DNA of 56,034 bases, taken from positions 1 through 56,034 of the forward strand of contig CAJOJJ010000001.1 of assembly GCA_905234925.1 (NCBI GenBank), read 5' to 3'. Source of the stretch: an uncultured Endomicrobiia bacterium. Lineage in GTDB: Bacteria > Elusimicrobiota > Endomicrobiia > Endomicrobiales > Endomicrobiaceae. The notes under the pieces are model-generated. The model ran no database searches and was not told the DNA's origin. It saw nothing but the letters and a program-made list of their open reading frames with translations. The position numbers were made by a program, and so were the translations under genes. Shown piece by piece: positions 807-52,368 of the stretch; within the stretch, counting starts at the first letter, position 1; each line of letters begins with the position of its first letter.

Positions 807-986
807 AAAAAATTGCCTTTGGCAATTTTTGGAAGATGGGAGGATTGGAAGAATAGAAAAAAAGGAATTTAATTAACATAGATTCCCGACCAACGGCTCT
901 TCGGGAATGACAAACGAAAGACAATGTAGAATGTACAATAAAATACAATTTATAAAAATGGATCCTGAATCAAGTTCAGGATGACA
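807..986. repeat. intergenic mosaic of repeat modules F, C, B, A and a B-like hairpin
   Basis: The modules are: F hairpin AAAAATTGCC-TTT-GGCAATTTTT (808-830); C octamers GGAAGATG GGAGGATT GGAAGAAT (831-856); B hairpin GATTCCCGACCAACGGCTCTTCGGGAATGACA (881-914); A heptamer-type ACAATGTAGAATGTACAATAAA (921-950); B-like hairpin ATCCTGAA-TCAAG-TTCAGGATGACA (960-986), directly before the pilin RBS. Confidence 0.85.
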
Positions 987-1000
987 AGAGGAGAAAATTT

Positions 1001-1636
1001 ATGAAAACATTAAACAACAAAAGACACCGGATTGCCACCGAAAAACAATGTGCAATGTATAATGTACAATGTACAATAAACGACAACGGCAATGAACGAC
1101 AATTAAAGACAACGTCGGCTCGCAATGACGACGAAACGGCAACGACGAGATGCCCGACAAAGACATTCGGGCATGACAGACGAGTCGGTTTTACCTTAGT
1201 AGAGTTGGTTATCACAATTGCTATTGTTATTATTTTGTCGGTGGTAAGTGTTCCGATTTACAGAGGATATATTGATAAGGCAAAAATGTCGGAGGGATAT
1301 GCGTTATTAGGAACTATTCTTTCAGCACAAAAAGCATATTTTTCAGAATATGGAAATTTCTTAGATGATTATCAAGGAAGCGGAGGAGTTTGTAAATTTA
1401 CTTCCAAAGATGAAGTTCTTGGAATAGATGCTCGTGGAAATAAGCATTTCACTCTTTTTTATTTTGATTATAGCGGAAATGCTTCATCAATTGGTAAATA
1501 TTTTTTTGAAGGTGATGTATTAATACCGAAAGACTTAACCACGAGTGGAAAAAATGTATTAAGAATGTATTACAACATAACAAGCGGAGCAACTGTTAAA
1601 GACATAGTTGCACAAGAAAATTGGTCTTTTGAGTAA
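1001..1636 (+). CDS. prepilin-type N-terminal cleavage/methylation domain protein (type IV pilin / pseudopilin-like) with an abnormally long 63-aa leader
   Basis: G|FTLVELVITIAIVIILSVVSVPIYRGYIDKAKMSEGY is the canonical prepilin cleavage/methylation motif plus hydrophobic helix. A strong RBS AGGAG lies 7 nt before the ATG at 1001. No ATG, GTG or TTG lies in frame between 1058 and the GFTL motif. Confidence 0.75.
   Translation: MKTLNNKRHRIATEKQCAMYNVQCTINDNGNERQLKTTSARNDDETATTRCPTKTFGHDRRVGFTLVELVITIAIVIILSVVSVPIYRGYIDKAKMSEGYALLGTILSAQKAYFSEYGNFLDDYQGSGGVCKFTSKDEVLGIDARGNKHFTLFYFDYSGNASSIGKYFFEGDVLIPKDLTTSGKNVLRMYYNITSGATVKDIVAQENWSFE
1025..1186 (+). repeat. repeat mosaic (modules A and B plus ACGACAA/CGGCAA filler) lying in frame inside the prepilin leader
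   Basis: CAATGTGCAATGTATAATGTACAATGTACAATAAAC (module A) and GATGCCCGACAAAGACATTCGGGCATGACAGA (module B variant). It is 162 bp = 54 codons with no stop, bounded by MKTLNNKR and GFTLVELV. Confidence 0.8.
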
Positions 1637-1768
1637 AAAGAATTTTTAGGAAATATTGATTGTAAAACGGTTATTTATAACAATTTATAATTAACGATAA
1701 AAAAGAAAGAACATAAATCAATTAATTTAAGGATACAGAAAAAACTGAAAAGTTTGTGACAAAATGAA

Positions 1769-1824
1769 GAAACTCGCAAACGCAGTGTACATAAGTTTTA
1801 ACGATACATAAGTTTGCGAGTTTC
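1769..1824. repeat. module G: 13-bp perfect inverted repeat around a GTACATAAGTTT-containing loop, between convergent genes
   Basis: GAAACTCGCAAAC (1769-1781) pairs with GTTTGCGAGTTTC (1812-1824). The loop carries GTGTACATAAGTTT and GATACATAAGTTT. A second copy lies at 38638-38693. Confidence 0.8.
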
Positions 1825-1856
1825 AATATTGTAGTCCAAAATTTACTGTTTTTTCG

Positions 1857-2639
1857 TTAGAAGATGTTTAAAATATAATAAAATATCGGAGCGGCGAAGA
1901 GGTAGGAGTCGAAGCGATCAAGCATTCCGCCGTGTCCGGGAAGAATATTACCCGAATCTTTTATATTGCAGTCTCTTTTGAATAAAGATTCCGCAAGGTC
2001 GGAAAACTGACCGACGAAAGAAATAACAAGCCCGTAAATTACTGCCTGATTATTTGTTATAACATCATGTAAAAATAAGTATCTGTATGCTATTGAAACA
2101 AGCACAGCCGTAACTACACCTGCCAAAGCCCCCTCAATGGTTTTTTTAGGGCTGATAATTGATGCCAGTTTATGGCTGCCGAATTTTTTACCGACGAAAT
2201 ATGCCCCAGTATCAAGCATCCAAACATTAACAAAAAGAAATATTATATAGTGCATTCCGTATTTCGGAATATCTCTTATAAGCACCATATGAAATAAAGA
2301 CCATGTTATAAAAAATGTTCCAAAACAAGTTACTGCTATTGATGCGGAAATATTTTCAATATTTTTTCTTGCCATTGCAAAGAAGAAAAATATAAATATT
2401 GCACAAATAATTATTTCATTAACATAAAAAGCAGTATTTAAAGCAAGATAAAATATCACTGCCGCAAGCACACCCAAAATTCCCATAGGTTTATATTTTT
2501 TTGTAACGGAAAAAAATTCCATAACGGAAAACAAAACAACTATAAAAAACATAGTTTGGAAAAATATTCCGCCATAAAATATACAGGCGAAGACTATCGG
2601 TATTCCGACAATTGCGGTTAGTATTCTTGGTAATAACAT
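1857..2639 (-). CDS. cdsA: phosphatidate cytidylyltransferase (CDP-diglyceride synthase)
   Basis: GKKFGSHKLASIISPKKTIEGALAG and SDLAESLFKRDCNIKDSGNILPGHGGMLDRFDS are CdsA signatures. The start is moved to the ATG at 2639 (RBS AAAGGAG); the ORF-track extension to 2705 only reads through repeat module E. Confidence 0.9.
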   Translation of the reverse strand: MLLPRILTAIVGIPIVFACIFYGGIFFQTMFFIVVLFSVMEFFSVTKKYKPMGILGVLAAVIFYLALNTAFYVNEIIICAIFIFFFFAMARKNIENISASIAVTCFGTFFITWSLFHMVLIRDIPKYGMHYIIFLFVNVWMLDTGAYFVGKKFGSHKLASIISPKKTIEGALAGVVTAVLVSIAYRYLFLHDVITNNQAVIYGLVISFVGQFSDLAESLFKRDCNIKDSGNILPGHGGMLDRFDSYLFAAPIFYYILNIF

Positions 2640-2651
2640 GGTAAACTCCTT

Positions 2652-2813
2652 TAGCTGAGAACGAAAAAACTCGTTTTTCTTGGCTGAGTCGTGGACTTCG
2701 TCCACTCAGCTGAGAGATGATAGTTTTCGGTATTTTTTACTTTGTAAAAAATCTTTTATTATCAAAAAAATTTGCAAAGCAAATTTCACAACAAACTTAT
2801 CAGCTTATAAGCT
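2652..2813. repeat. repeat modules E and F plus a CTTATAAG palindrome between uppS and cdsA
   Basis: Module E is TAGCTGAG...CTGAGTCGTGGACTTCGTCCACTCAGCTGAGAG (2652-2716) with a nested hairpin. The F hairpin AAATTTGC-AAA-GCAAATTT is at 2768-2786. A perfect palindrome AGCTTATAAGCT lies near 2801-2812. Confidence 0.8.
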
Positions 2814-2822
2814 AAGTAATTG

Positions 2823-3557
2823 CTATGCAATTTTTCCAAAGCGGCGTTCTCTTTTCTGGTAATCCTTAATTGCCTTTATAAATTCTTCTTCATTAAAATC
2901 CGGCCACAAAACATCCGTCACATAAATTTCCGAATATGCTATCTGCCATAACAAAAAATTGGAAATTCTTTTCTCTCCCGACGTTCTTATCAACAAATCC
3001 GGATCGGGAAGATTTTTAGTATATAAACAATTTGAAAAATCTTCTTCCGTAGGATTTTTTATTCCTTTATCAATTAAACTTTTGCAAGCTCTTAAAATCT
3101 CTTGTCGAGAACCGTAATTTAAAGCAATATTTAAAATAAGAGCTTTATTATTTTTAGTCTTTTCTATTGCATCTTGAATATCTTTTTGAAGCTCTGCGGA
3201 CATTCTCGATATATCACCTATAACATTGAGAGATATATCGTTCCGAAGCATATTATCAAGCTCTTGTTTTAAATACAGTTTCAAAAGTTTCATAAGTCCT
3301 GAAACTTCGTCCTCAGGACGCTGCCAATTCTCCGTAGAAAATGCGTAAAGGGTCAAAACCTGAATATCAAGCTTTCTTGCAAACTCAACTATTTTCTTAA
3401 CGGTTTTGACCCCATTAGTATGTCCGAATAATCTGGGCATCAATTTTTTCTTTGCCCATCTGCCGTTGCCGTCCATAATTATTGCAATATGTTTAGGCAA
3501 CTTTGATAAATCCAATTGTTCTATTGAAGCCACTTTTTTACTTCTGAGAAATTGCAT
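2823..3557 (-). CDS. uppS: undecaprenyl (isoprenyl) diphosphate synthase
   Basis: HIAIIMDGNGRWA and RTSGEKRISNFLLWQIAYSE are UppS signatures. It sits between frr and cdsA as in most bacteria. Confidence 0.92.
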   Translation of the reverse strand: MQFLRSKKVASIEQLDLSKLPKHIAIIMDGNGRWAKKKLMPRLFGHTNGVKTVKKIVEFARKLDIQVLTLYAFSTENWQRPEDEVSGLMKLLKLYLKQELDNMLRNDISLNVIGDISRMSAELQKDIQDAIEKTKNNKALILNIALNYGSRQEILRACKSLIDKGIKNPTEEDFSNCLYTKNLPDPDLLIRTSGEKRISNFLLWQIAYSEIYVTDVLWPDFNEEEFIKAIKDYQKRERRFGKIA

Positions 3558-3711
3558 TTACGGGGCAATTTGCTGCACATGCTCCGCAGTCAACACATTT
3601 ATCTGCTGCAATTTCGTATTTGTCGCCTGCTGCACTGATTGCCTCTACCGGGCAATTTGCTGCACAAGAACCACAACCTACACAAACTTCTTTGTCAATT
3701 GAATGAGCCAT
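3538..3711 (-). CDS. small 2x[4Fe-4S] ferredoxin (57 aa), missed by the ORF track
   Basis: Reverse-strand translation is MAHSIDKEVCVGCGSCAANCPVEAISAAGDKYEIAADKCVDCGACAANCPVNAISQK*, with two CxxCxxCxxxCP motifs. The RBS is GGAGGGAGAAA. It overlaps the uppS start by 20 nt. The 98-aa plus-strand ORF 3406..3702 is its Cys-rich antisense. Confidence 0.75.
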   Translation of the reverse strand: MAHSIDKEVCVGCGSCAANCPVEAISAAGDKYEIAADKCVDCGACAANCPVNAISQK

Positions 3712-3766
3712 TTTCTCCCTCCATGAGAAATTTATAACGACAATATATAATAAACTGCAACAACGA

Positions 3767-3796
3767 GATTCCCGACAGAAACACTCGGGAATGACA
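3767..3796. repeat. module B REP-like hairpin between frr and the ferredoxin gene
   Basis: GATTCCCGACAGAAACACTCGGGAATGACA, with stem TTCCCGA/TCGGGAA. It is preceded by degenerate A-type sequence and followed by a small CAGCAC-TGT-GTGCTG hairpin. Confidence 0.8.
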
Positions 3797-3845
3797 GCAC
3801 TGTGTGCTGTTTACATACCTCTATAACTCAGCATTTCTTGAATGC

Positions 3846-4406
3846 TTATATTTTCAAAAGGTCTTCTTCTTTTTGTTTAACCAAATCATCTACCTTAGCT
3901 ATATAAGAATCGGTTAATTTCTGAATATCCGTTTCATATTTTTTTCTGTCGTCTTCCGTGATAGCTTTGTCTTTTTCAAGCTTCTTAACTTCATCAACGA
4001 TACGTCTTCTTTCGTTTCTGATTGCTATCTTATAATCTTCAGACATTTTATGAACAACTTTTATAATTTCTCTTCTTCTTTCCTCAGTAAGAGCAGGAAT
4101 TGAAATTCTGATAATTCTGCCGTCATTTACCGGAGTAAGCCCCAAATCGGATTTCAATATTGCTTTTTCTATTGCTGCAAGCTGAGACAAATCCCAAGGT
4201 CTTATTTCCAATGTTCTTCCGTCGGGAACACTAACGCCAGCAACCTGATTTAATGCAAGCAAAGAACCGTAACTTTCAACCTTTATTCCGTCTAAAAGAG
4301 CCGCATTTGCTCTGCCCGTTCTGACGGTAGAAAAATCATGTTTCACTTTTTCTATAGTTTTCTTCATAGCTTCTTCGCCGGAAGCCAAAATTTCTTTAGG
4401 TAACAT
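3846..4406 (-). CDS. frr: ribosome recycling factor
   Basis: Full-length Frr-like sequence (ANAALLDGIKVESYGS..., PALTEERRREIIKVV). The ATG at 4406 follows GGAG by 7 nt; the TTG at 4418 in the ORF track is part of that RBS. Confidence 0.92.
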   Translation of the reverse strand: MLPKEILASGEEAMKKTIEKVKHDFSTVRTGRANAALLDGIKVESYGSLLALNQVAGVSVPDGRTLEIRPWDLSQLAAIEKAILKSDLGLTPVNDGRIIRISIPALTEERRREIIKVVHKMSEDYKIAIRNERRRIVDEVKKLEKDKAITEDDRKKYETDIQKLTDSYIAKVDDLVKQKEEDLLKI

Positions 4407-4416
4407 TGTTAACTCC

Positions 4417-4497
4417 AATTTATAATTTATACTTTACAATTTATAATTAACAGCTTTAACCTCGAGATTCCTGACAGATACATTCGGGAATGACAGA
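4417..4497. repeat. degenerate module A plus module B hairpin between pyrH and frr
   Basis: CAATTTATAATTTATACTTTACAATTTATAATTAAC is followed by GATTCCTGACAGATACATTCGGGAATGACAGA (4466-4497), which abuts the pyrH stop codon. Confidence 0.8.
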
Positions 4498-5190
4498 CTA
4501 ACAAATGGATGTGCCGATAGGTTCGCCGTCTAAAACTTTCTTCAAATTGCCTTTTTTATGGAAATCAAAAACATAAATTTCTATATTGTTTTCCATACAT
4601 AACAAGAAAGCGGAGATATCCATTATTTTTAAATTTTTATCTATCGCTTCCTTATAAGATACTTTATCATATTTTTTTGCAGCCGGATCTTTCTTGGGAT
4701 CTGCCGTATAAACACCGTCAACTTGTGTAGCTTTAAGAATAATATCGGCTTTTATCTCACAGGCTCTAAGTGCCGCAGTAGTATCCGTCGTAAAATACGG
4801 GTTACCGGTACCGCCCGCAAAAACTACAATATATCCGTTGCTTAAATATTCTATGGCTTTTGCCTGCGAAAAAATTTCACAAAAATTCGTTACGCCTGCG
4901 GCTGCCAAAACAACAGATTTTATTCCGTTAGCAATTAAAACTTCACTGATTGCAATAGCATTCATTACCGTTGCAAGCATACCCATTTTATCGGCGGAAG
5001 CTCTGTTTATTTCTTTTCCCGCTCCGCGCCATAAGTTGCCTGCACCGACAACAATAGAGAGTTCTACTTGTTCGGATAAAATATTTTTTATTTCATCCGC
5101 TATCGTTTGAATACTTTGTGTTGAGACGGATTTACCGTCTCCCGATAAAGTTTCGCCTGACAGCTTAAGTAAAACTCTCTTTTTTGTCAT
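4498..5190 (-). CDS. pyrH: UMP kinase
   Basis: RVLLKLSGE, VVGAGNLWRG and VVFAGGTGNPYFTTDTTAALRA are UMP kinase motifs. Context is tsf-pyrH-frr. Confidence 0.93.
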   Translation of the reverse strand: MTKKRVLLKLSGETLSGDGKSVSTQSIQTIADEIKNILSEQVELSIVVGAGNLWRGAGKEINRASADKMGMLATVMNAIAISEVLIANGIKSVVLAAAGVTNFCEIFSQAKAIEYLSNGYIVVFAGGTGNPYFTTDTTAALRACEIKADIILKATQVDGVYTADPKKDPAAKKYDKVSYKEAIDKNLKIMDISAFLLCMENNIEIYVFDFHKKGNLKKVLDGEPIGTSIC

Positions 5191-5202
5191 TTTATTATTA
5201 CC

Positions 5203-6848: not shown

Positions 6849-7020
6849 TTTACTACCCCTTTTTAGTTTTTTTGTCTCTTTTTTTCCGAGACACCTCCAC
6901 GAACTTCAAACCTCAAACCCTTGTTACGGGGACTTTTGACTAATCCGTTCGTGTGCGTATTTTATACGACTTATCAACAGTATATTTTATCAAAAAAAAA
7001 TTTGCTTTGCAAATATTTTA

Positions 7021-7606: not shown

Positions 7607-7767
7607 AAAAAAATCGCTTTGCAATTTTCCGGCTGAAAAGCTGAACAGCTGATAAGTTTAAGGTACTTTATACTATAGATTCCCGACCAACGGCTCTTCG
7701 GGAATGACAGACGAAACGGCAATGTACAATGTATAATGTACAATAAACGGCAACGACTGGACGGCAA
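7607..7767. repeat. intergenic mosaic F-E-B-A between ptsI and the downstream gene
   Basis: The modules are: F AAAATCGC-TTT-GCAATTTT (7607-7628); E GCTGAAAAGCTGAACAGCTGATAAG (7631-7656); B GATTCCCGACCAACGGCTCTTCGGGAATGACAG (7678-7710); A CAATGTACAATGTATAATGTACAATAAAC plus CGGCAACGAC filler (7717-7767). Confidence 0.85.
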
Positions 7768-7770
7768 TTT

Positions 7771-10560: not shown

Positions 10561-10655
10561 AAAAATTGCTCCGCAATTTTTAGCTGAGCCGCGAACTCCG
10601 TCCGCTCAGCTGAAGAGCTGATAAGTTTATTGTGAAAATCGTAAAGCGATTTTTG
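10561..10655. repeat. repeat modules F-E-F between EIIC and EIID
   Basis: F is AAAATTGC-TCC-GCAATTTT (10561-10581; on the coding strand its loop reads GGAG). E is TAGCTGAGC-CGCGAACTCCGTCC-GCTCAGCTGAAGAGCTGATAAG (10582-10628). A second F, GAAAATCG-TAAA-GCGATTTTT, is at 10634-10655. Confidence 0.85.
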
Positions 10656-11335: not shown

Positions 11336-11355
11336 TAAAAATGTCCCACATATTC

Positions 11356-11468
11356 AGGTTATTAGGTTATTAGGTTATAAGGTTATGAGTTTATTTTTAG
11401 TTTTTTGCTTTTATCTTTTATAACCTTATAAACTTATAATCTTATAACCTTTTAAGCTTATAACCTAC
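11356..11468. repeat. module D: long imperfect palindrome made of AGGTTATT / CTTATAAC octamers
   Basis: The left arm AGGTTATTAGGTTATTAGGTTATAAGGTTATGAG and right arm ATAACCTTATAAACTTATAATCTTATAACC flank a T-rich centre. It lies between the GH57 stop and the EIIC start. Confidence 0.85.
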
Positions 11469-14090: not shown

Positions 14091-14125
14091 GATTCCCGTC
14101 CAACGGCTCTGCGGGAATGACAAAC
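14091..14125. repeat. module B REP-like hairpin between EIIA and EIIB
   Basis: GATTCCCGTCCAACGGCTCTGCGGGAATGACAAAC. The arm changes (GAC to GTC, TTCGGG to TGCGGG) keep the stem pairing relative to the copies at 881 and 7678. It has the same ACTTT(T)ATACTATA 5' flank as the 7678 copy. Confidence 0.85.
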
Positions 14126-18487: not shown

Positions 18488-18639
18488 AATGTACAATGTA
18501 CAATGTACAATGTATAATGTACAATAAACAGCAAAACGACTTTTAATTTCTAATTGCTAACCGATAATTTTAAATTTAACAATAACTTTCTTATGATTTT
18601 CTAAGCCTCTAATCTTCAAATTTGCCTTCGGAAATTTTT
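18488..18639. repeat. module A heptamer array followed by C-type and F-type modules
   Basis: AATGTAC AATGTAC AATGTAC AATGTAT AATGTAC AATAAAC (18488-18529) is the cleanest period-7 array in the window. It is followed by CCTCTAATCTTC and the hairpin AAATTTGCCTTCGGAAATTT (18606-18639). Confidence 0.9.
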
Positions 18640-25396: not shown

Positions 25397-25401
25397 TTTT
25401 A

Positions 25402-25472
25402 CTCCTCCAATCTTCTAATCTTCCGGCATTCCGCCGTTTATTATACATTGTACATTATAAATTGTACATTAC
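25402..25472. repeat. modules C and A in reverse orientation
   Basis: CTCCTCCAATCTTCTAATCTTCC is the reverse complement of GGAAGATT-type octamers. TTATACATTGTACATTATAAATTGTACATT is the reverse complement of module A. Confidence 0.85.
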
Positions 25473-31867: not shown

Positions 31868-31955
31868 GAAAATTTGCTTTGCAAATTTTAGCTGAAAAGC
31901 TGAGAAGCTGAAGAGCTGAAAAGTTTTCGGTAAAAAATTGTTTTGCAAATTTTTT
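31868..31955. repeat. repeat modules F-E-F upstream of argJ
   Basis: The modules are GAAAATTTGC-TTT-GCAAATTTTA (31868-31889), AGCTGAAA AGCTGAGA AGCTGAAG AGCTGAAA (31889-31924, period 8) and AAAAATTG-TTTT-GCAAATTTTT (31933-31955). Confidence 0.9.
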
Positions 31956-32064: not shown

Positions 32065-33408
32065 ATGAATAAAAATATTTTGGCTGTAATAGTTTCTTAT
32101 AATCCTGATAATTCAATAATTAAATTATATAATTCAATCAAAGAACAAGTTGATGAGTTAATAATTGTCGACAACGCATCAACGGAAGAAGAATCAAGAA
32201 AAATCTTAGAAGAGCTGTCTCAAAAATTGAAAATAATTTATAACAATAAAAATCTCGGTATTGCTACAGCATTAAATCAAGGTGCGAAATATGCAATAGA
32301 AAACGAATATAAATGGTTGTTGACTCTTGACCAAGACAGTGAATTTTTTCCCCACACTTACGAAACTTTGCTTGCTTCTTATAAAAATATGCCGGATAAA
32401 GACGATGTTATGCTGATTGCACCGAAATACAAAGAACGACAATGTATAATGTACAATGTACAATGTACAATAAAAGACAACGACAAAGAACGGCAATGTA
32501 CAATAAACGACAAAATGACAAAAGATTTGAAAATTAGAAAGGAAAGTAATGTTTTATGGAAAGAAGTTATATTAAATCTTACTTCAGGAAGTTTAATAAA
32601 GACTGAAAGTTTTAAGAAAATAGGATTTTTCGACGAGAAACTTTTTATAGATCAAGTTGATAACGATTATTGTTATCGTTTAAAAAAGGCAGGATACAAA
32701 ACAAAAATTGCACAGAATATTTTATTCCTGCACAAGCTCGGCAACTCAAAAAAGAAACTTTGGTTTATAATAACAAACCATTCACCGATAAGGAGATATT
32801 ATCTTGCAAGAAATTCGACCACAATGTTAAAAAGATATTTTTTCGTTGCTCCCTACACGACGGTAAGATACTTTTTGGGAGGAACAATTTTCGGTTGGAT
32901 AAAAATACTTTTATTTGAAAAAAATAAGTTTAAGAAGATTTTCTATGGGATAAAAGGAATGTTAGAGGAAGTATACAAACTTAATATCAAAAAAAACAAT
33001 ACTAAATCAATAAAAAAAATTATTCCTTTAAAAAATTTTTTAGGAAAAGAATTTATAGGATATTCAGGACAAGATGCAATAGATAAAATTTATAAAGAAA
33101 AACAAGGATATATAAAAAATGCTTTTTACAGAAAAGATATAGGATACATTACATTAGCTTGGGGAAATGAGGAAAGTGGATTGTGCCATATTATAAAAAG
33201 AAGAACTGAACAAAAAATTGATATTTCTATATTTTTATCCGATTTATCTGACATAATAATTAAAGGGAATTTATATAAAAACAAAAAAAGTTCTTCCAGA
33301 CGAAATATTTGGTATAATGGAAAAATCGTTATTATAGAAACAACATATTATGGAAAAAATTTAAATTGGATTGTATCGAGTTTTAACCAAAGAAAAGAAC
33401 CTAAATAA
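32065..33408 (+). CDS. family 2 glycosyltransferase (rhamnosyltransferase-like) fused to a ~120-aa C-terminal domain resembling BECR-fold (Barnase/EndoU/colicin-E5/RelE-like) nucleases
   Basis: The N-terminus ILAVIVSYNPDN...ELIIVDNAST...LLTLDQDS...FIDQVDNDYCYRLKKAGYK fits GT2. The C-terminus AIDKIYKEKQGYIKNAFYRKDIGYITLAWGNEESGLCHIIKRRTEQKID...WYNGKIVIIE...WIVSSFNQRK matches, from memory only, the PBECR-type motif. No stop codon separates the two parts. Confidence 0.75.
   Translation: MNKNILAVIVSYNPDNSIIKLYNSIKEQVDELIIVDNASTEEESRKILEELSQKLKIIYNNKNLGIATALNQGAKYAIENEYKWLLTLDQDSEFFPHTYETLLASYKNMPDKDDVMLIAPKYKERQCIMYNVQCTIKDNDKERQCTINDKMTKDLKIRKESNVLWKEVILNLTSGSLIKTESFKKIGFFDEKLFIDQVDNDYCYRLKKAGYKTKIAQNILFLHKLGNSKKKLWFIITNHSPIRRYYLARNSTTMLKRYFFVAPYTTVRYFLGGTIFGWIKILLFEKNKFKKIFYGIKGMLEEVYKLNIKKNNTKSIKKIIPLKNFLGKEFIGYSGQDAIDKIYKEKQGYIKNAFYRKDIGYITLAWGNEESGLCHIIKRRTEQKIDISIFLSDLSDIIIKGNLYKNKKSSSRRNIWYNGKIVIIETTYYGKNLNWIVSSFNQRKEPK
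32434..32523 (+). repeat. module A repeat inserted in frame inside the glycosyltransferase
   Basis: GAACGACAATGTATAATGTACAATGTACAATGTACAATAAAAGACAACGACAAAGAACGGCAATGTACAATAAACGACAAAATGACAAAAG is translated as ERQCIMYNVQCTIKDNDKERQCTINDKMTK. This is the same frame and near-identical peptide as in the pilin leader (EKQCAMYNVQCTINDNGNERQ). Confidence 0.85.
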
Positions 33409-38585: not shown

Positions 38586-38693
38586 AAAAAATTGCGAAGC
38601 AATTTTTTAAAGGTTGCATAGTATGAGGCGAGACGAAGAGTTTACGAAACGCGGTGTACGTAGCTGTAAGGGGTACATAAGTTTCGGAAACTC
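38586..38693. repeat. module F hairpin and second copy of module G
   Basis: AAAAATTGC-GAA-GCAATTTTT is at 38586-38608. GAGTTTACGAAAC...GGTGTACGTAG...GGTACATAAGTTTCGGAAACTC is at 38638-38693, with arms that differ from the 1769 copy but still pair. Confidence 0.8.
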
Positions 38694-38720
38694 AAAGTCG
38701 CAGCCCATAATATGCGACCG

Positions 38721-42356: not shown

Positions 42357-42528
42357 AAAAATTTGTGAAACAAATTTTTAGAAGATTTGAAGATTGGATG
42401 ATTGGAAGATTGGAAGCTACATTGTAAAATTTGCTTCGCAAATTTTGTTATTTATAAAAATTCCTATTTTCCTCTGATCTTCTTATCTTCTACTCTTCTA
42501 ATCTTCCAAATTGCCATCGGCAATTTTA
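42357..42528. repeat. intergenic mosaic F-C-F-C(rev)-F filling the psd-pssA spacer
   Basis: The modules are: AAAAATTTG-TGAAA-CAAATTTTT (42357-42379); GAAGATTT GAAGATTG GATGATTG GAAGATTG GAAGCTAC (42380-42417, period 8); AAAATTTGC-TTC-GCAAATTTT (42424-42447); the reverse-complement C array (42461-42508); AAATTGCC-ATC-GGCAATTT (42507-42528). Confidence 0.9.
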
Positions 42529-44004: not shown

Positions 44005-44028
44005 TAAAAAATTGCTTCGCTATTTTTT
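44005..44028. repeat. module F hairpin immediately upstream of the yaaT RBS
   Basis: The coding strand reads AAAAAATAGC-GAA-GCAATTTTTT AAGGAG AATAAT ATG. Confidence 0.8.
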
Positions 44029-45725: not shown

Positions 45726-45775
45726 AAAAAAATTGTAAAGCAATTTGGAAGATTGGAGGATTTGAGGATTGGAAA
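45726..45775. repeat. modules F and C in the tmk / nspC divergent spacer
   Basis: AAAAATTG-TAAA-GCAATTT is followed by GGAAGATT GGAGGATT TGAGGATT GGAAACGG (period 8). Confidence 0.85.
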
Positions 45776-49698: not shown

Positions 49699-49834
49699 GG
49701 TTATAAGATATAAGGTTATAAGTTTAACGACAAAAAATATGAACGAATAAACTTATAAACCATTAAACAACTGATAACCCAATAACCTTATAAACTTATA
49801 AACTATAAGCTAAAAATTTGCTTTGCAAATTTTT
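49699..49834. repeat. module D imperfect palindrome followed by module F
   Basis: GGTTATAAGATATAAGGTTATAAGTTT ... AACCTTATAAACTTATAAACTATAAGC is at 49699-49810. AAAAATTTGC-TTT-GCAAATTTTT is at 49812-49834. Confidence 0.85.
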
Positions 49835-50198: not shown

Positions 50199-50477
50199 TG
50201 TACGGAGAGCATTATTTTAATGTACATGTACAATGTATAATGTACAATAAACGACAAAAAAGCAGAAGATTAGAGGCGTGGAAGAGTAGAAGATTGGAAA
50301 CGACAGAAGGTCAGAGGGACAGAAGATCAGACGGCAAGAGAAAACAGGAATTTTAATAATAACAAAAATTGCAAAACAATTTTTACAGCTTTACATCCGA
50401 CCATTCGACTTTCAAAAGTGCAAAGCACTTTTTACTGTAAGCTAATAAAACGCCGAAAACATCTCAGCTCCTCAGCT
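50199..50477. repeat. largest intergenic mosaic: A, long C-type octamer array, two F hairpins, E remnant
   Basis: The modules are: AATGTACATGTACAATGTATAATGTACAATAAACGACAA (to 50257); about ten period-8 units (CAGAAGAT TAGAGGCG TGGAAGAG TAGAAGAT TGGAAACG ACAGAAGG TCAGAGGG ACAGAAGA TCAGACGG ...) to ~50345; AAAAATTGC-AAAA-CAATTTTT (50365-50385); AAAAGTGC-AAA-GCACTTTT (50414-50434); CTCAGCTCCTCAGCTGG (50463-50477). Confidence 0.9.
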
Positions 50478-50500
50478 GGAATAGTATAAAGGATAAAAAA

Positions 50501-50842
50501 ATGAGGTTTGTTTTACGTTCTAAAATTTTCCGTGCAACCGTAACGGAAGCCAATTTGGAATATCAGGGAAGCATTACGATTGATTCCGACTTGATTGATA
50601 AAGCAGGTTTGTGGATAGGCGAAAAAGTACTTGTCGTCAGCAATACTTCCGGAGCAAGGCTTGAAACTTACGTTATTCCGGGAAAAGCCGGTTCCGGAGT
50701 TATATGTATGAACGGAGCTGCCGCACACCTGATAAAGAAAGGCGAAATAGTAATAATTATGGGCTTTGAATTGTCGGACAAACCTATAAATGCAAAGTTC
50801 GTTTTCGTTGACGAAAACAATAAATGTATTAAACAAGTGTAA
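50501..50842 (+). CDS. panD: aspartate 1-decarboxylase proenzyme
   Basis: 113 aa. [22 protein letters not shown] carries the Gly-Ser self-processing site. Confidence 0.92.
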
Positions 50843-50864
50843 AATAAACAAAAGAGGTTCTTAT

Positions 50865-51806
50865 ATGTTGGATATGTTGCAGGCATATTTTTTAGAACTG
50901 AAAGAAATTAAGCCGGCATCCGAAGAAGAAATCGGAAAGCTTTGGGCCAAAATTCAAAAGCATGATAAAAAAGCCGTTAAAAGAATGGTAGAAATAAATT
51001 ATTGCCTTGTTATTCCCATTGCGAAAAAATTTATAAGACGAGGCGTTGATTTGATGGATTTGATTTCCGACGGAAATATCGGCTTAATGAAAGCCGTTGA
51101 AAAGTTCGATCCCGAAAAGAACATCAAATTCTCGACGTATGCTACATATTGGATAGAACAATACATCAGAAAATCCATTGAAGATAATTCTAAAACCGTC
51201 AGAATTCCGTCTTATATGTATGAAATTATAAGCAAATGGAAAAAAGTAAGAAACTCTTTAATGTCGAAATTAAACAAAGAGCCGACGGTCGAGCAGGTAG
51301 CTAAAGAGCTTAATATTCCGGTAGATAAAGCAGAAGAAATAAACTCTACTTTGTATTCTTTTGACAGCATTTCTTCTCTTGACACTGCAATGTTTGAAGA
51401 TTCCGATTCTTTAAAAAAAGATAATATTAAAGACAATTTGTCGAAAACCCCCGAATCCGTAACGGAAATTATAAGAACTTCAAAAAACGTACAACAGGCA
51501 ATCGATATGCTGCCTGAGAGAGAAGCCGAAATTATTAAAATGAGATTCGGAATAAATAATACACAGAATTTATCTTTGGAAGATATAGGAAGCTTGTATA
51601 AAGTTTCTAAGGAAAGAGTCCGCCAGTTGGAATTTAAGGCGTTGCAAAGATTAAAGTATATATTTTTAAAGTTAAAATATGTAGATGCTAAAACAGTGGA
51701 TACTTTATTATTGGATCAACGCGGTACAAGACCTGACAGAAGACAGCATGTACATTCCAATTTAAAAAACAGAAGAATGTCCGACAGGAGAAAAGCTTGG
51801 AACTGA
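50865..51806 (+). CDS. sigma-70 family RNA polymerase sigma factor (group 2/3-like) with a basic C-terminal extension
   Basis: Region 2 is DLISDGNIGLMKAVEKFDPEKNIKFSTYATYWIEQYIRKSI. Region 4.2 is SLEDIGSLYKVSKERVRQLEFKALQRLK. The start is moved to the ATG at 50865 (RBS AGAGG). Confidence 0.85.
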   Translation: MLDMLQAYFLELKEIKPASEEEIGKLWAKIQKHDKKAVKRMVEINYCLVIPIAKKFIRRGVDLMDLISDGNIGLMKAVEKFDPEKNIKFSTYATYWIEQYIRKSIEDNSKTVRIPSYMYEIISKWKKVRNSLMSKLNKEPTVEQVAKELNIPVDKAEEINSTLYSFDSISSLDTAMFEDSDSLKKDNIKDNLSKTPESVTEIIRTSKNVQQAIDMLPEREAEIIKMRFGINNTQNLSLEDIGSLYKVSKERVRQLEFKALQRLKYIFLKLKYVDAKTVDTLLLDQRGTRPDRRQHVHSNLKNRRMSDRRKAWN

Positions 51807-52321
51807 AAGATTTGATATCAAAAGCAGTCAGAGATATTCCTGATTTTCCTCAAAAAGGCGTAATATTTAAGGATATTACTCCGCTGCTTTCGGATATAAA
51901 TTTATACAATAAAATTATAGACGATTTCGTCGATAAATTTAAAAACAAAAATATAACAAAAGTTGCAGGCCTTGAAGCAAGAGGTTTTTTGTTCGGTATT
52001 TCCGTTGCACAAAAACTCAACGTTCCTTTTGTTCCTATAAGAAAAAAAGGAAAACTTCCGTACAAAACAGTTTCAGTTGAATACGAGTTGGAATACGGAA
52101 AAGCCGCCGTAGAGATGCATGAAGATGCCGTCAATGAAAAAGATAATGTTTTGATTGCAGATGATCTTCTTGCTACGGGCGGAACGGTAAGTGCCGCAAT
52201 AGAACTGATAAAAAAATTGAAAGGTTCCGTTGCCGGCTGCGCATTTGTTATTGAGCTTTTGTTCTTAAACGGTAAAGAAAAACTAAAAGACATCGACTAT
52301 TACTCGATAGTTAAATATTAA
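51797..52321 (+). CDS. apt: adenine phosphoribosyltransferase
   Basis: IPDFPQKGVIFKDITPLL and the PRPP-binding VLIADDLLATGGT identify it. The TTG start overlaps the sigma-factor stop by 10 nt. Confidence 0.9.
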   Translation: MELKDLISKAVRDIPDFPQKGVIFKDITPLLSDINLYNKIIDDFVDKFKNKNITKVAGLEARGFLFGISVAQKLNVPFVPIRKKGKLPYKTVSVEYELEYGKAAVEMHEDAVNEKDNVLIADDLLATGGTVSAAIELIKKLKGSVAGCAFVIELLFLNGKEKLKDIDYYSIVKY

Positions 52322-52327
52322 TCTGCA

Positions 52328-52368
52328 GTTTATTGTACATTATACATTGTACATTATAAATTGTCGTT
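52328..52368. repeat. module A in reverse orientation abutting the tRNA gene
   Basis: GTTTATTGTACATTATACATTGTACATTATAAATTGTCGTT is the reverse complement of the AATGTACAATGTATAATGTACAATAAAC consensus. Confidence 0.85.

What the first reader, a model, noticed from the sequence alone, without database searches (positions are those of the whole stretch)
807..52368. Window-wide vocabulary of intergenic repeat modules built from degenerate 7- and 8-mer arrays and hairpins (BIME-like mosaic)
Almost every spacer longer than ~60 bp is assembled from the same few modules in varying order and orientation.
- A: (AATGTAC)n ending AATAAAC, period 7. Positions 921, 1046, 7717, 18488, 32440, 50221; reversed at 25437 and 52328.
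- B: hairpin GATTCCCGAC-N7-10-TCGGGAATGACA. Positions 881, 1149 (variant), 3767, 4466, 7678, 14091; all in the same plus-strand orientation.
- C: (GGAAGATT)n, period 8. Positions 831, 42380, 45746, 50262; reversed at 18606, 25402 and 42461.
- D: (AGGTTATA)n arranged as long palindromes. Positions 11356 and 49699.
- E: (AGCTGAAA)n / AGCTGAG hairpins. Positions 2652, 7631, 10582, 31889, 50463.
- F: AAAATTTGC-nnn-GCAAATTTT hairpin, about 20 copies.
- G: positions 1769 and 38638.

Filler of ACGACAA/CGGCAA units joins A and B. Short arrays of imperfect heptamers or octamers as the building block of dispersed repeats are unusual. The closest known analogy is the mosaic REP/BIME organisation of enterobacteria, but the sequence content here is different. 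In the 7- and 8-mer arrays the reading frame rotates from unit to unit, so several frames of a module are stop-free, which may explain why copies are tolerated in coding DNA (see the separate findings).
Basis: seen in the sequence. Interest (0 to 1): 0.7.

Follow-up and report, generated by a model that had tools for sequence, protein, structure and literature searches.

The report
Mosaic intergenic repeats in rumen Endomicrobia
The spacers of this rumen Endomicrobia contig really are built from a small set of fast-changing repeat modules, and one of them is a close look-alike of the Neisseria "NTS/dRS3" hairpin that a recently described single-strand DNA nuclease cuts, so this is a Neisseria-style intergenic mosaic in an unrelated phylum.

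Summary
Every module (A-G) is at the stated coordinates and is far above shuffled expectation. Modules cover 35% of non-coding bases against 0.19% of coding bases, and 18 of 25 spacers of 60 bp or more hold at least one.

It is not an assembly artefact. Two independent conspecific assemblies carry the same modules at 99.8-99.96% identity, and related rumen Endomicrobia MAGs share them.

Orthologous spacers in an 88%-identical relative are either short or filled with different modules, so turnover is fast. Arrays change by whole units.

Stop-free modules sit in frame inside a glycosyltransferase loop and a prepilin leader.

Module B is the key lead. Its reverse complement, TGTCAT-TCCCGA-loop-TCGGGA-ATC, matches the arms and critical flanks of the Neisseria NTS/dRS3 "Ssn-related motif". 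It shows compensatory stem changes. It also occurs, with hexamer filler, in prophages of a 52-54% GC Elusimicrobia lineage.

The heptamer and octamer arrays resemble the RS units of Neisseria mosaics and known heptamer repeat arrays. Some of the F hairpins recur at orthologous positions, perfectly at one site and degenerately at others; most look like ordinary transcript hairpins.

No Ssn gene was found in the sequence held.

Verdict: a new variant of a known kind, of moderate interest.

The parts
917..945 (+). A: short (AATGTAC)n array ending AATAAAA, 3' of B(881)
   Evidence: family D6
1040..1148 (+). A array (AATGTGC AATGTAT AATGTAC AATGTAC AATAAAC) plus hexamer filler (AACGRC)n. It lies in frame in the 5' extension of pilin-like ORF 1001-1636.
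   Evidence: D7: 86% identical over 64 nt to 32434-32497
4417..4448 (+). Degenerate A-like heptamer array (AATTTAT)n between frr and pyrH
7710..7770 (+). Filler, A array and filler, downstream of B(7678)
   Evidence: The spacer is only 26 bp in relative L008.
18488..18536 (+). A array of 5 units plus the AATAAAC end
   Evidence: Conspecific contigs L140 and L141 end or carry an N-gap here.
25436..25471 (-). A array in reverse orientation
   Evidence: The whole 82-bp spacer is 11 bp in L014.
32437..32522 (+). A, filler and A-end inserted in frame in a variable loop of the GT2 glycosyltransferase gene (32065-33408)
   Evidence: alignment A1: homologues lack it
50219..50260 (+). A array with the AATAAAC end, followed by C
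52328..52364 (-). A array in reverse orientation, immediately upstream of tRNA-Arg (52372-52447)
881..912 (+). B hairpin, long-loop subfamily (loop CCAACGGCTCT). It is NTS/SRM-like on the minus strand.
961..986 (+). B' hairpin GATCCTGAA-TCAAG-TTCAGGATGACA, with the same GAT...ATGAC flanks and a different stem
1149..1178 (+). B hairpin with a G:C pair at the covarying position. It is translated in the prepilin leader as CPTKTFGHDRR.
   Evidence: An identical copy sits in the orthologous pilin of L002.
3767..3796 (+). B hairpin with loop AGAAACAC
   Evidence: The same loop occurs in prophage copy L137_1887 with a C:G pair.
4466..4495 (+). B hairpin with one G-T wobble
7678..7709 (+). B hairpin, identical over 32 nt to the copy at 881
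14091..14122 (+). B hairpin with one G-T wobble. The spacer is 107 bp here and 28 bp in L008.
831..858 (+). C: (GGAAGATT)n-type octamer array directly 3' of an F hairpin
   Evidence: D5
18600..18617 (-). Weak C array next to F
25401..25424 (-). C array that runs into the GGAGG Shine-Dalgarno sequence of gene 24896-25396
42380..42419 (+). C array. It forms a long imperfect hairpin with 42470-42507.
   Evidence: z = -4.9
42470..42507 (-). Reverse C array, the partner arm of 42380-42419
   Evidence: The orthologous spacer in L014 holds an A array instead.
45751..45775 (+). C array 3' of an F hairpin
50262..50340 (+). C array followed by a related AGAAGGTC/AGAAGATC array
11351..11466 (.). D: (AGGTTATA)n arms forming a palindrome of about 115 bp
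   Evidence: (z = -7.5). The spacer is 20 bp in L008 and 1-3 bp in L009 and L011.
49699..49808 (.). D palindrome, second copy
   Evidence: (z = -5.2)
2652..2714 (.). E-type AGCTGAG-flanked GC-rich hairpins
2795..2815 (-). Octamer array CTTATCAG/CTTATAAG. A conspecific assembly carries two extra units (16 nt) here.
7631..7656 (+). E: (AGCTGAAA)n array 3' of an F hairpin
10582..10625 (+). E hairpin AGCTGAGC...GCTCAGCT plus AGCTGAAG units
   Evidence: (-20.7 kcal/mol, z = -4.7)
31889..31923 (+). E array lying between two F hairpins
50462..50478 (-). Short E-type AGCTGAGGAGCTGAG element
810..828 (.). F hairpin AAATTGCC-TTT-GGCAATTT
2768..2786 (.). F hairpin
6998..7016 (.). F hairpin just after the stop of gene 7021-7594. 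A degenerate counterpart exists in L008.
7610..7628 (.). F hairpin 15 nt upstream of the start codon at 7594
10562..10580 (.). F hairpin with GGAG in its loop, upstream of the EIID start codon
10634..10654 (.). F hairpin, also present in degenerate form at the same spacer in L008
18618..18637 (.). F variant AAATTTGCC-TTC-GGAAATTT
31870..31888 (.). F hairpin 17 nt upstream of the argJ start codon. A perfect counterpart sits at the same place in L014.
31933..31953 (.). F hairpin
38588..38606 (.). F hairpin
42359..42377 (.). F hairpin 17 nt upstream of the start codon at 42341
42427..42445 (.). F hairpin at the centre of the C/reverse-C palindrome
42508..42526 (.). F hairpin abutting the stop codon of psd. 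It is the only F scored terminator-like by the simple scan.
44008..44026 (.). F hairpin 14 nt upstream of the start codon at 43993
45732..45750 (.). F variant AAAATTGT-AAA-GCAATTT, followed by C
49814..49832 (.). F hairpin following the D palindrome
50364..50384 (.). F hairpin
50414..50432 (.). F-like hairpin AAAAGTGC-AAA-GCACTTTT
1769..1826 (+). G hairpin, copy 1
   Evidence: (z = -3.4)
38633..38695 (+). G hairpin, copy 2, with a compensated outer stem. It is absent from the orthologous spacer of L014.
   Evidence: (z = -4.8)

Best explanation
The window is a whole contig of a rumen Endomicrobiaceae genome (Ruminimicrobiellum-like). Its spacers carry a lineage-specific, fast-evolving intergenic mosaic of the Neisseria NIME type. 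There are three kinds of component.

1. **Module B, an oriented DNA hairpin repeat.**
   - On its reverse strand it reads TGTCAT-TCCCGA-loop-TCGGGA-ATC.
   - This makes it a long-loop variant of the NTS/dRS3 'Ssn-related motif'. In Neisseria and other bacteria that motif is bound and cut, as single-stranded DNA only, by a small GIY-YIG nuclease (SsnA).
   - I infer that B is maintained and spread by such a hairpin-specific single-strand DNA enzyme.

2. **Simple tandem arrays.**
   - These are the heptamers (A), the hexamer filler, and the octamers (C, D, E).
   - They sit beside or between hairpins, like the RS units of Neisseria mosaics and the heptamer arrays known from other phyla.
   - They grow and shrink by whole units through replication slippage.
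   - They are copied or lost as blocks by recombination.
   - They settle wherever they are tolerated: 3' ends of genes, spacers inside operons, a cleaved prepilin leader, a surface loop of a glycosyltransferase, and prophage spacers.

3. **F hairpins.**
   - These are small stems clamped by A-tracts and T-tracts.
   - They recur at some orthologous positions and are probably ordinary transcript-end or 5'-UTR hairpins.
   - Octamer arrays tend to start directly 3' of them.

**Shown:** presence, enrichment, family relationships, turnover between relatives, unit-wise length change, in-frame insertions, B covariation, and B's similarity to NTS.

**Inferred:** the enzyme, the slippage and recombination mechanics, and the mostly neutral or selfish nature of the arrays.
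For: **Enrichment and independent recovery**
- Shuffle controls.
- Recovery without the consensus sequences.

**Not an artefact, and not window-only**
- Conspecific contigs L140 and L141, from other samples, are 99.8-99.96% identical and include all modules.
- The 21-mer A end occurs in 3 other rumen Endomicrobia MAGs, where B and E co-occur with it.

**Turnover in the 88%-identical relative (L008, L014)**
- The B, D and E-B-A spacers and the 25397-25478 spacer are 11-28 bp there.
- The pyrH-frr, frr-fdx and uppS-cdsA spacers are 156-267 bp there and full of A plus filler.
- Spacer 42342-42525 holds an A array instead of the F-C-F arrangement.
- More distant relatives L009 and L011 have none of A, B or C.

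**Unit-wise change**
- A conspecific contig differs by a 16-nt insertion, exactly two octamers.

**In-frame copies**
- GT2 loop: alignment A1.
- A homologue carries C, filler and B' in the same loop.
- The pilin leader copy is conserved in L002.

**Module B**
- 18 copies give 100% paired cells.
- Pair 4 is UA in 9 copies, CG in 7 and GC in 2.
- None of 500 shuffles reaches the observed covariation score.
- The arms match the NTS consensus at 9-12 of 13 and 8-11 of 12 positions.
- The invariant flanks are GTC 5' of the palindrome and C 3' of it. These are the positions PMC11893778 reports as critical for SsnA cleavage and binding.
- B with filler also fills the spacers of prophages on 230-270 kb contigs, one labelled 'uncultured Elusimicrobia bacterium', at 52-54% GC.

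**Orientation**
- A and B always share orientation within a composite, but both orientations occur relative to the flanking genes.

**Literature**
- NIME definition and dynamics: PMC1797815.
- Heptamer arrays in other phyla: PMC4679880 and PMC4692102.
Against: - No Ssn-type GIY-YIG gene, RAYT (REP-associated tyrosine transposase) or other transposase was found in the window or in the lineage sequence held, roughly 300 kb by my estimate. The GIY-YIG queries were written from memory and the sample is a small part of a genome, so this is inconclusive.
- The published SRM search pattern matches none of the B copies. Their loops are 8-11 nt against 0-5 nt, and an A closes the stem.
- The closest relative (L008, L014; 42 kb) has many A arrays but no B. 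A therefore does not need B nearby.
- In the prophages all B copies are in sense orientation. This could point to an RNA-level role.
- Only one unit-wise polymorphism was seen among conspecifics.
Confidence: 0.55

Rival explanations
1. The modules are selected gene-expression signals rather than selfish or neutral repeats. Under this reading A is a portable promoter (TGTACA-N17-TATAAT), C is a ribosome-binding enhancer (GGAGG-like units), and B, F and E are RNA hairpins that end, stabilise or process transcripts.
For: - Every full A array contains TATAAT with TGTACA 17 nt upstream (sequence).
- C at 25401-25424 runs into the GGAGG of the next gene.
- Four F hairpins sit 14-17 nt upstream of start codons, directly 5' of the Shine-Dalgarno sequence.
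- One F (31870) is perfectly conserved at its orthologous site.
- In the prophages all B copies are in sense orientation between late genes.
- TAACTGA heptamer arrays have been proposed as translational elements (PMC4679880).
Against: - A lies antisense to the flanking genes in about 17 of 25 arrays. B is antisense in 7 of 12 chromosomal copies.
- Essential operons, rpsB-tsf-pyrH-frr and the PTS genes, carry quite different modules, or none, in an 88%-identical relative.
- Modules also sit inside coding sequence.
- The simple promoter scan is not above shuffles (78 against 64 +/- 7). Only one F scores as terminator-like.
Confidence: 0.2
2. The arrays are ordinary microsatellite-like expansions that arose independently at each locus by polymerase slippage, with heptamers favoured as proposed by Mrazek 2007. 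Under this reading there is no dispersal mechanism and no link to the hairpins.
For: - A unit-wise length change is seen.
- (AATGTAY)3 alone occurs in more than 120 unrelated metagenome contigs of 20-65% GC.
- Heptamer over-representation is reported widely.
Against: - The arrays have a defined, conserved end. The exact 21-mer AATGTATAATGTACAATAAAC occurs 4 times in the window and in 3 other MAGs.
- Segments of 64 nt of A plus filler are 86% identical between distant loci (family D7).
- Composite order and relative orientation (B-filler-A and A-filler-B) recur.
- B copies are identical over 32 nt.
Confidence: 0.12
3. The palindromic units (D, C/reverse-C, G) are miniature inverted-repeat transposable elements, moved in trans by a transposase encoded elsewhere in the genome.
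For: - They form long inverted-repeat arms with strong folding (z = -4.9 to -7.5).
- They show clean presence or absence relative to orthologous spacers.
Against: - No target-site duplication is visible at the insertion boundaries.
- The arms are themselves tandem octamers of variable number.
- There is no transposase in the window.
- The copies differ in length and internal content.
Confidence: 0.08
4. The repeats are an assembly or binning artefact, such as chimeric joins or collapsed low-complexity reads.
For: Two conspecific assemblies break or carry an N-gap at the A array at 18488. This shows the arrays do disturb short-read assembly.
Against: - Three independent assemblies from different samples agree base for base over all other modules.
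- Related species carry the same families.
Confidence: 0.01

Closest known systems
Neisseria NTS/dRS3 hairpin repeats, the Ssn-related motifs (SRM) targeted by the single-domain GIY-YIG ssDNA nuclease SsnA (PMC11893778)
   Same: - The reverse strand of B reads (T/C)GTCAT-TCCCG...CGGGA-ATC, against NTS CGTCATTCCCGCG-MAV-GCGGGAATCYRG.
- The arms match at 9-12 of 13 and 8-11 of 12 positions.
- The invariant GTC 5' of the palindrome and C 3' of it are the positions reported as critical for cleavage and binding.
- B is oriented, multi-copy, intergenic and clustered.
- The stem subfamilies covary while the flanks stay fixed, as with NTS and NTSvar.
   Different: - The loops are 8-11 nt, not about 3 nt.
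- The stem closes with A-T rather than C-G.
- The published SRM pattern finds no copy.
- No ssn gene has been seen yet.
- The host phylum, Elusimicrobiota, is not mentioned in the paper's main text (0 occurrences; its supplements were not available).
- Copies also lie in prophages and inside a coding leader.
Neisseria intergenic mosaic elements (NIMEs): dRS3 hairpins separating families of 50-150-bp RS units (PMC1797815)
   Same: - Intergenic arrays alternate GC-richer hairpins with AT-richer repeat units of several families.
- The arrays sit at syntenic positions but vary in number and length between relatives.
- There is an association with a pilin locus.
- The prophage spacers in L142 show regular alternation of two hairpin types with short linkers.
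   Different: - The 'RS' units here are themselves tandem 6-, 7- and 8-mers.
- Most spacers hold one or two modules rather than long arrays.
- In 2007 NIMEs were described as not observed outside Neisseria.
Dispersed intergenic heptamer arrays: cyanobacterial STRR (short tandemly repeated repetitive sequences) and GGGGAYT, Xanthomonas GGGAATC, and TAACTGA in Beggiatoaceae, Cyanobacteria and Bacteroidetes (PMC4692102, PMC4679880)
   Same: - Short tandem heptamers of 2-6 or more units occur at many intergenic loci.
- Length and sequence vary between close relatives.
- Inverted pairs form hairpins.
- Copies are occasionally found inside ORFs.
- Function is unknown.
   Different: - The unit sequences differ.
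- Several array families (7-mer, 6-mer, three 8-mers) coexist here.
- The arrays are physically coupled to hairpin modules, with a fixed relative orientation and a defined array end.
REP/BIME of enterobacteria, with RAYT transposases
   Same: Both are extragenic hairpin repeats with a conserved short foot next to the stem, organised in a mosaic with linker motifs. Both have been proposed to be handled as single-stranded hairpins.
   Different: - There is no GTAG foot.
- There are no alternating inverted Y/Z pairs: all 7 window copies share one orientation.
- No RAYT was found.
- The linkers are tandem simple repeats.
Rickettsia palindromic elements, RPE (from my own knowledge: Ogata et al. 2000)
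   Same: Repeat copies are inserted in frame into protein-coding genes, at positions that tolerate extra residues.
   Different: RPEs are single palindromes of about 100-150 bp. Here the in-frame copies are stop-free tandem arrays plus a short hairpin.

Membership tests
NTS/dRS3-type Ssn-related motif (for module B) | Hairpin with an ATTCCC...GGGAAT-type palindromic core | tested here: met
   All 18 copies pair fully over 8 bp. The core is AT[T/C/G]CCCGA...TCGGG[A/G/C]AT.
NTS/dRS3-type Ssn-related motif (for module B) | Orientation-giving conserved flanks: GTC immediately 5' of the palindrome and C immediately 3' of it, on the NTS strand | tested here: met
   G7 and G33-A34-C35 are invariant columns on the forward strand. 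They correspond to C and GTC on the reverse strand. Their importance for SsnA is taken from PMC11893778.
NTS/dRS3-type Ssn-related motif (for module B) | Match to the published degenerate search pattern HGTCWYN(0-2)YYVSBRHN(0-5)WNVSBRGN(0-2)RNCYNB | tested here: not met
   There are 0 hits in the window and all relevant loci. Relaxing the loop to 12 nt or less and two stem positions recovers only some of the copies: 1 of the 7 window copies, 3 in L002, and 1-2 per prophage locus.
NTS/dRS3-type Ssn-related motif (for module B) | Many copies, enriched over shuffled sequence | tested here: met
   7 copies in the window against 0.74 expected. The genome-wide count cannot be tested here.
NTS/dRS3-type Ssn-related motif (for module B) | The genome encodes a single-domain cd10448 GIY-YIG nuclease (ssn), often flanked by the motif | tested here: inconclusive
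   None was found in the window by Pfam scans. None was found in the 0.94 Mb of sequence held, of which roughly 300 kb by my estimate is from this lineage, by motif search and tblastn with remembered GIY-YIG sequences. Only a small part of any one genome was available.
NTS/dRS3-type Ssn-related motif (for module B) | Bound and cut as single-stranded DNA by the cognate Ssn | not testable with these tools
   This needs a biochemical assay.
Neisseria intergenic mosaic elements (NIME) | Hairpin repeats separating repeat units from several families, arranged in intergenic arrays | tested here: met
   Window 810-1178 reads F-C-B-A-B'-A-filler-B. L142 spacers alternate two hairpin types with linkers.
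Neisseria intergenic mosaic elements (NIME) | Arrays at syntenic positions that differ in unit number and length between relatives | tested here: met
Neisseria intergenic mosaic elements (NIME) | Restricted to the genus Neisseria, with defined dRS3 (N8 loop) and RS families | tested here: not met
   The host is Elusimicrobiota. The loops are 8-11 nt within a longer stem, and the units are simple tandem repeats. This is an analogue, not a member.
REP/BIME | Imperfect palindrome of about 35 bp with a conserved 5' GTAG | tested here: not met
   The foot is TGTC/CGTC.
REP/BIME | Copies in alternating orientation (Y/Z) forming BIMEs or REPINs (REP doublets forming hairpins) | tested here: not met
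   All 7 window copies are on the + strand. No inverted pairs are present.
REP/BIME | An associated RAYT (Y1 transposase) gene | tested here: inconclusive
   None is present in the window. The rest of the genome was not available.
Dispersed heptamer simple-sequence arrays (STRR, TAACTGA or GGGAATC type) | Tandem heptamers, 2 or more units, at many intergenic loci of one genome | tested here: met
   9 A arrays: 32 hits against 0.41 expected. There is a lag-7 autocorrelation peak in non-coding DNA.
Dispersed heptamer simple-sequence arrays (STRR, TAACTGA or GGGAATC type) | Length and sequence variation between close relatives at the same spacers | tested here: met
   L008 compared with the window at pyrH-frr, frr-fdx and uppS-cdsA.
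MITE | Terminal inverted repeats plus a target-site duplication | tested here: not met
   Inverted arms are present in D and C/reverse-C. No duplication is visible at the boundaries against empty orthologous sites.
CRISPR array | Identical repeats separated by unique spacers, with cas genes nearby | tested here: not met
   The sequences between the hairpins are themselves repeats, and no cas genes are present.

The most novel reading that the evidence does not exclude
Elusimicrobiota, including rumen Endomicrobia and a 52-54% GC lineage with its prophages, run an Ssn-like system that handles single-stranded DNA hairpins. Its target hairpin is B and its relatives of the form GAT-stem-ATGAC. Repeated nicking and repair just upstream of the hairpin seeds stop-free 6-, 7- and 8-mer arrays. 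Together these build Neisseria-style intergenic mosaics that spread into prophages, operon spacers and tolerant protein loops, and may gate recombination or DNA uptake near pilin genes.
Probability: 0.3. Interest if true: 0.65.

Novelty: new variant of a known kind. Interest (0 to 1): 0.5.

Why it matters
- **Wider reach of mosaic repeats.** It would extend Neisseria-type intergenic mosaics, and the newly described Ssn hairpin targets, to an uncultured and little-studied phylum and its prophages.
- **A natural experiment.** It offers hairpin variants with long loops and covarying stems for defining what Ssn-type nucleases recognise.
- **A possible link between two repeat classes.** It ties two phenomena that have been described separately: oriented hairpin repeats and dispersed heptamer or octamer arrays.
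- **Practical effects on metagenomics.**
  - The modules break short-read assemblies.
  - They inflate ORFs. Examples are the false N-terminal extensions at 7021-7767 and 30662-31948, and the true in-frame insertions in the glycosyltransferase and the pilin.
  - They could serve as sensitive strain markers for rumen Endomicrobia.

Tried and rejected
- **Rfam.** The gathering-threshold scan of the window found only tRNA-Arg. The E-value scan of 600-8000 gave only chance-level hits. No known RNA family covers the modules.
- **Restriction-site decoy idea.** TGTACA, CAGCTG and TTATAA are at expected frequency in coding DNA, so this was rejected.
- **Promoter and terminator consensus scan.** Promoter-like sites are not above shuffles, and only one F passes the terminator rule. 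This gives no support for a general signal role.
- **Metagenome scan with (AATGTAY)3.** It returned more than 120 hits, mostly from unrelated taxa. The bare heptamer array is therefore not lineage-specific, and the scan added little.
- **Phage database search with A, filler and B.** blastn found no match. The A-end 21-mer is absent from viral contigs.
- **Search for an ssn or GIY-YIG gene.** A motif search and tblastn in all held sequence found nothing. The queries came from memory, so this is weak. Of 83 small candidate ORFs, a crude motif filter passed 6 and none of those resembled GIY-YIG; they were not run through Pfam.
- **Supplements of the Ssn paper.** They were not available.
- **Literature search for the A sequence.** No paper holds it.
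- **First contig look-up.** The look-up with the GH57 protein found nothing. The PtsI protein worked.
- **One wasted script call**.

Full report
**1. What the window is**

The window is AT-rich (about 35% GC) and densely packed with housekeeping genes. These include rpsB-tsf-pyrH-frr-fdx-uppS-cdsA, a PTS/HPr-kinase cluster, smc, argJ and leuA/leuC (Pfam). There is one tRNA-Arg.

The PtsI protein identifies the organism. Its best named relatives are Elusimicrobia, Endomicrobiaceae and 'Candidatus Ruminimicrobiellum' MAGs from rumen. A 21-mer from module A is found only in three rumen Endomicrobia/Elusimicrobia MAGs among 185,579 species genomes. The window is itself a whole 56,034-bp contig. 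The genus is discussed in PMC11257099. A term search of that paper turned up repeats only in the context of CRISPR detection.

**2. Checking the observation**

| Module | Observed | Expected |
|---|---|---|
| A | 32 | 0.41 |
| B, exact | 3 | 0.00 |
| B, generic GAT-stem-ATGAC hairpin | 7 | 0.74 |
| C | 15 | 1.4 |
| D | 21 | 1.1 |
| E | 12 | 1.3 |
| F | 15 | 2.8 |

- Tandem Repeats Finder (TRF) and the repeat finder recover the same families without being told the consensus sequences.
- Non-coding DNA has autocorrelation peaks at lags 7 and 8, while coding DNA shows only period 3.
- The D and C/reverse-C arrangements are long palindromes, with z = -7.5, -5.2 and -4.9.
- Modules cover 35% of the 4.9 kb of non-coding DNA but only 0.19% of coding DNA. 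18 of 25 spacers of 60 bp or more contain at least one.

- The filler is hexameric, (AACGRC)n.
- All B copies lie in the first 14 kb.
- E at 2652 and 10582 is a GC-rich hairpin flanked by AGCTGAG.

**3. Not an artefact, and not private to this contig**

Two contigs from other samples carry the identical PtsI. They align to window 7-18500 at 99.82% and 99.96% identity, with all modules in place. The only length differences are a 3-nt deletion and a 16-nt insertion in the uppS-cdsA spacer. The insertion is exactly two octamer units (CTTATCAG CTTATCAT). Both contigs stop or carry an N-gap at the A array at 18488. Loci from three other MAGs contain A together with B, E and filler, in the same relative orientation.

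**4. Turnover**

The closest other species (PtsI 88% identical; loci L008 and L014) is syntenic with window 1.8-43.9 kb.

| Spacer (window coordinates) | Window | Relative L008 or L014 |
|---|---|---|
| 14061-14167 (B) | 107 bp | 28 bp |
| 11336-11469 (D) | 134 bp | 20 bp |
| 7595-7770 (E-B-A) | 176 bp | 26 bp |
| 25397-25478 (A-C) | 82 bp | 11 bp |
| pyrH-frr | 79 bp | 267 bp, packed with A arrays and filler |
| frr-fdx | 133 bp | 231 bp, packed with A arrays and filler |
| uppS-cdsA | 117 bp as first mapped (182 bp, 2641-2822, after re-mapping the cdsA start) | 156 bp, packed with A arrays and filler |
| 42342-42525 | F-C-F-reverseC-F | a single A array |

Relatives at 73-80% PtsI identity have 1-14-bp junctions at these places and no A, B or C at all, though they do have F-type hairpins and one D-like array. 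The modules are therefore gained, lost and replaced on the timescale of species divergence.

**5. Copies inside genes**

The GT2 glycosyltransferase (32065-33408) carries A, filler and A-end in frame, in a loop that is short in all homologues (alignment A1). Its 72%-identical homologue P0122 carries a different set, C plus filler plus a B-like hairpin, in the same loop and also in frame.

The pilin-like ORF 1001-1636 reads through A, filler and B before the G|FTLVELV cleavage motif. The B-encoded segment CPTKTFGHDRR is retained in the orthologue from another MAG (L002). A leader that is cleaved off and a surface loop are both places where extra residues are harmless.

A, C and the filler have no stop codon in any frame. 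D and E do, and they were not seen in genes.

**6. Module B is an NTS/dRS3-like hairpin**

- Eighteen copies were aligned: 6 from the window, 6 from the rumen MAGs and 6 from the viral-contig (prophage) loci. They form an 8-bp stem in 100% of cells.
- Pair 4 is U-A in 9 copies, C-G in 7 and G-C in 2. The closing pair also changes on both sides in two copies: once to C-G and once to a U-G wobble. None of 500 shuffles reaches the observed covariation score.
- The flanks never vary: G before the stem and GACA after it.
- Read on the other strand this is TGTCAT-TCCCGA-loop-TCGGGA-ATC.
- The Neisseria Transformation Sequence is CGTCATTCCCGCG-MAV-GCGGGAATCYRG, with dRS3 (ATTCCC-N8-GGGAAT) as its core (PMC11893778).
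- The arms of B match it at 9-12 of 13 and 8-11 of 12 positions. The L007 copy matches at 12 of 13 and 11 of 12.
- That paper shows the small GIY-YIG nuclease SsnA binds and cuts NTS only as single-stranded DNA and only on that strand. The C just after the palindrome is most important for binding. The three bases before the palindrome are most important for cleavage. Those are exactly the invariant flanks of B.
- Other hairpins with the same flanks but different stems occur at window 961-986 and abundantly in L142 (GATGCCGAG...CTCGGCATGACG). This parallels NTS and NTSvar.
- The published degenerate SRM pattern finds none of these copies, because the loops are 8-11 nt and the stem closes with A-T.
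- No GIY-YIG gene was found in the sequence held. Membership is therefore likely but not proven.

**7. B and filler beyond the lineage**

- A viral-contig scan with the B pattern found four contigs of 42-54% GC.
- They encode genuine phage head, portal, terminase and sheath proteins.
- The portal of one contig is 100% identical to a protein on a 270-kb contig. It is 89% identical to a protein on a 233-kb contig labelled 'uncultured Elusimicrobia bacterium'. This contig is therefore a prophage of another Elusimicrobia lineage; the hosts of the other three were not examined.
- The spacers of the prophage locus examined (L142) are mosaics of B-type hairpins, a second hairpin type, short linkers and (ACGGCA/ACGACA)n filler.
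- The loops are identical to the window copies (AAAGACAT, AGAAACAC), but the covarying pair differs.
- The A-end 21-mer is absent from viral contigs.

**8. The arrays**

- A has a defined, conserved 3' end, a TATAAT-containing penultimate unit and a variable number of units.
- In all nine cases examined, a C, E or D array begins directly 3' of an F hairpin on the purine-rich strand (sequences).
- A and B always share orientation within a composite. Relative to neighbouring genes, both orientations occur: A is about 17 antisense to 8 sense, and B is 7 to 5 on chromosomes.
- Left of 45.7 kb, where GC skew is negative, 5 of 6 A arrays and all 7 B copies are on the + strand whatever the gene strand. 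This includes the two + genes. The equivalent holds for all arrays in L008 and L014.
- That pattern hints at a strand or replication-linked process, but the numbers are small.
- The bare heptamer array (AATGTAY)n is not lineage-specific. It occurs in more than 120 unrelated metagenome contigs, sometimes beside other 7-8-mer arrays.
- Dispersed intergenic heptamer arrays are documented in Cyanobacteria, Xanthomonas, Beggiatoaceae and Bacteroidetes, with unknown function and with slippage as the proposed origin (PMC4692102 and PMC4679880).

**9. F hairpins**

There are about 18 copies of A-tract, (T)TTGC, 3-nt loop, GCAA(A), T-tract. They fold at -5 to -9 kcal/mol.

- Orthologous recurrence is partial. 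31870 has a perfect counterpart in L014, while 2768, 6998 and 10634 have only degenerate counterparts in L008.
- F-type hairpins also occur in the distant relative L011.
- Four lie 14-17 nt before start codons, directly 5' of the Shine-Dalgarno sequence.
- Only one passes a simple terminator rule.

I read F as an ordinary lineage-typical transcript hairpin, either a weak terminator or a UTR stem, and not as a mobile module.

**10. Interpretation**

The best-supported picture is a NIME-like mosaic (definition and dynamics in PMC1797815). It is built from an SRM/NTS-like oriented hairpin plus simple tandem arrays. It is reshuffled by slippage and recombination, and it is tolerated wherever it does no harm.

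The main rival is selected expression signals. It is supported by the TGTACA-N17-TATAAT in A, the GGAGG-like units in C and the sense orientation of B in prophages. It is weakened by mixed orientations, by the absence of modules from orthologous essential operons, and by the copies inside genes.

Independent slippage at each locus cannot explain the conserved array end, the 64-nt A-plus-filler identities or the 32-nt identical B copies. A MITE reading lacks target-site duplications and a transposase. Assembly artefact is excluded.

**11. Novelty**

- B is a new, long-loop member of a recently described motif class, or at least a close analogue of it, in a phylum that the paper's main text does not mention (its supplements were not available).
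- Heptamer arrays are a known kind.
- New here is the combination: several 6-, 7- and 8-mer array families coupled to NTS-like hairpins in Elusimicrobiota and their prophages, with in-frame insertions.
- No paper in the library holds the A sequence.
- I rate it a new variant of a known kind, with interest 0.5.

Noticed in passing
window 45033-45800: Gene strand and GC skew both flip at about 45.7 kb. Genes to the left are on the minus strand with negative skew; genes to the right are on the plus strand with positive skew. The divergent pair is tmk and a PLP decarboxylase. No dnaA is present. This could be a replication origin or terminus, or just an operon boundary.
   Followed up: partly
window 32065-33408: The GT2 glycosyltransferase ORF continues into a C-terminal PBECR1 (barnase/EndoU/RelE-like nuclease) domain at aa 353-445. 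All homologues (279-308 aa) lack it. This may be a gene fusion or a lost stop codon.
   Followed up: partly
window 1001-1636; L002 3612-4130: A type IV pilin-like gene has a leader of about 60 aa that is encoded by modules A, filler and B, ahead of G|FTLVELV. The B-encoded CPTKTFGHDRR is conserved in another rumen MAG's orthologue. Three assemblies agree on the frame.
   Followed up: partly
window 1769-1826 and 38633-38695: Module G is a two-copy hairpin, 79% identical. The outer stem is fully compensated (AACTCGC...GCGAGTT against GTTTACG...CGGAAAC) and the inner GTGTAC...GTACATAAG is conserved. Copy 2 is absent from the orthologous spacer of L014. There is no Rfam match.
   Followed up: partly
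window 52499-54682: A 727-aa K/E-rich protein with nested 27-, 54- and 228-nt coding repeats. It accounts for families D1-D4 of the repeat finder and is unrelated to the intergenic modules.
   Followed up: no
window 28296-29950: Two hypothetical genes (28394-29347 and 29286-29900) lie between the PD-(D/E)XK nuclease gene and RNase PH. They are absent from the syntenic relative L014, where those two genes overlap.
   Followed up: no
window 18488-18500; L140 end; L141 N-gap: Independent short-read assemblies of the same species break exactly at the A array, so these arrays limit contig length in this lineage.
   Followed up: yes
window 7021-7767, 30662-31948, 1857-2705, 9779-10576: Mechanical ORFs run upstream through stop-free modules. 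The real starts are at 7594, 31852, 2640 and about 10555, judged from Shine-Dalgarno sequences and orthologue lengths. Automatic annotation will over-extend these genes.
   Followed up: partly
L034, L039, L062, L086 (unrelated metagenome contigs): (AATGTAY)n arrays there sit next to other 7-8-mer arrays such as (AATTCATA)n, (TAGGAATT)n and (TGTATAATC)n. This suggests that similar multi-family array mosaics exist in other, unidentified taxa.
   Followed up: no
L142 4036-4173, 6423-6888, 9727-10000, 13196-13346: Prophage late-gene spacers in a 52% GC Elusimicrobia genome are regular mosaics. They alternate two hairpin types (GATGCCGAG...CTCGGCATGACG and GATCCCCGAC...), AT-rich linkers and (ACGGCA)n filler. 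All are in sense orientation.
   Followed up: partly
window 18380-18470; L008 1340-1430; L011 1440-1496: A conserved sigma-70-type promoter for hpf (TTGCTT, spacer, TGGTATAAA) lies downstream of the variable module block. Ordinary promoters therefore exist and are distinct from module A.
   Followed up: no
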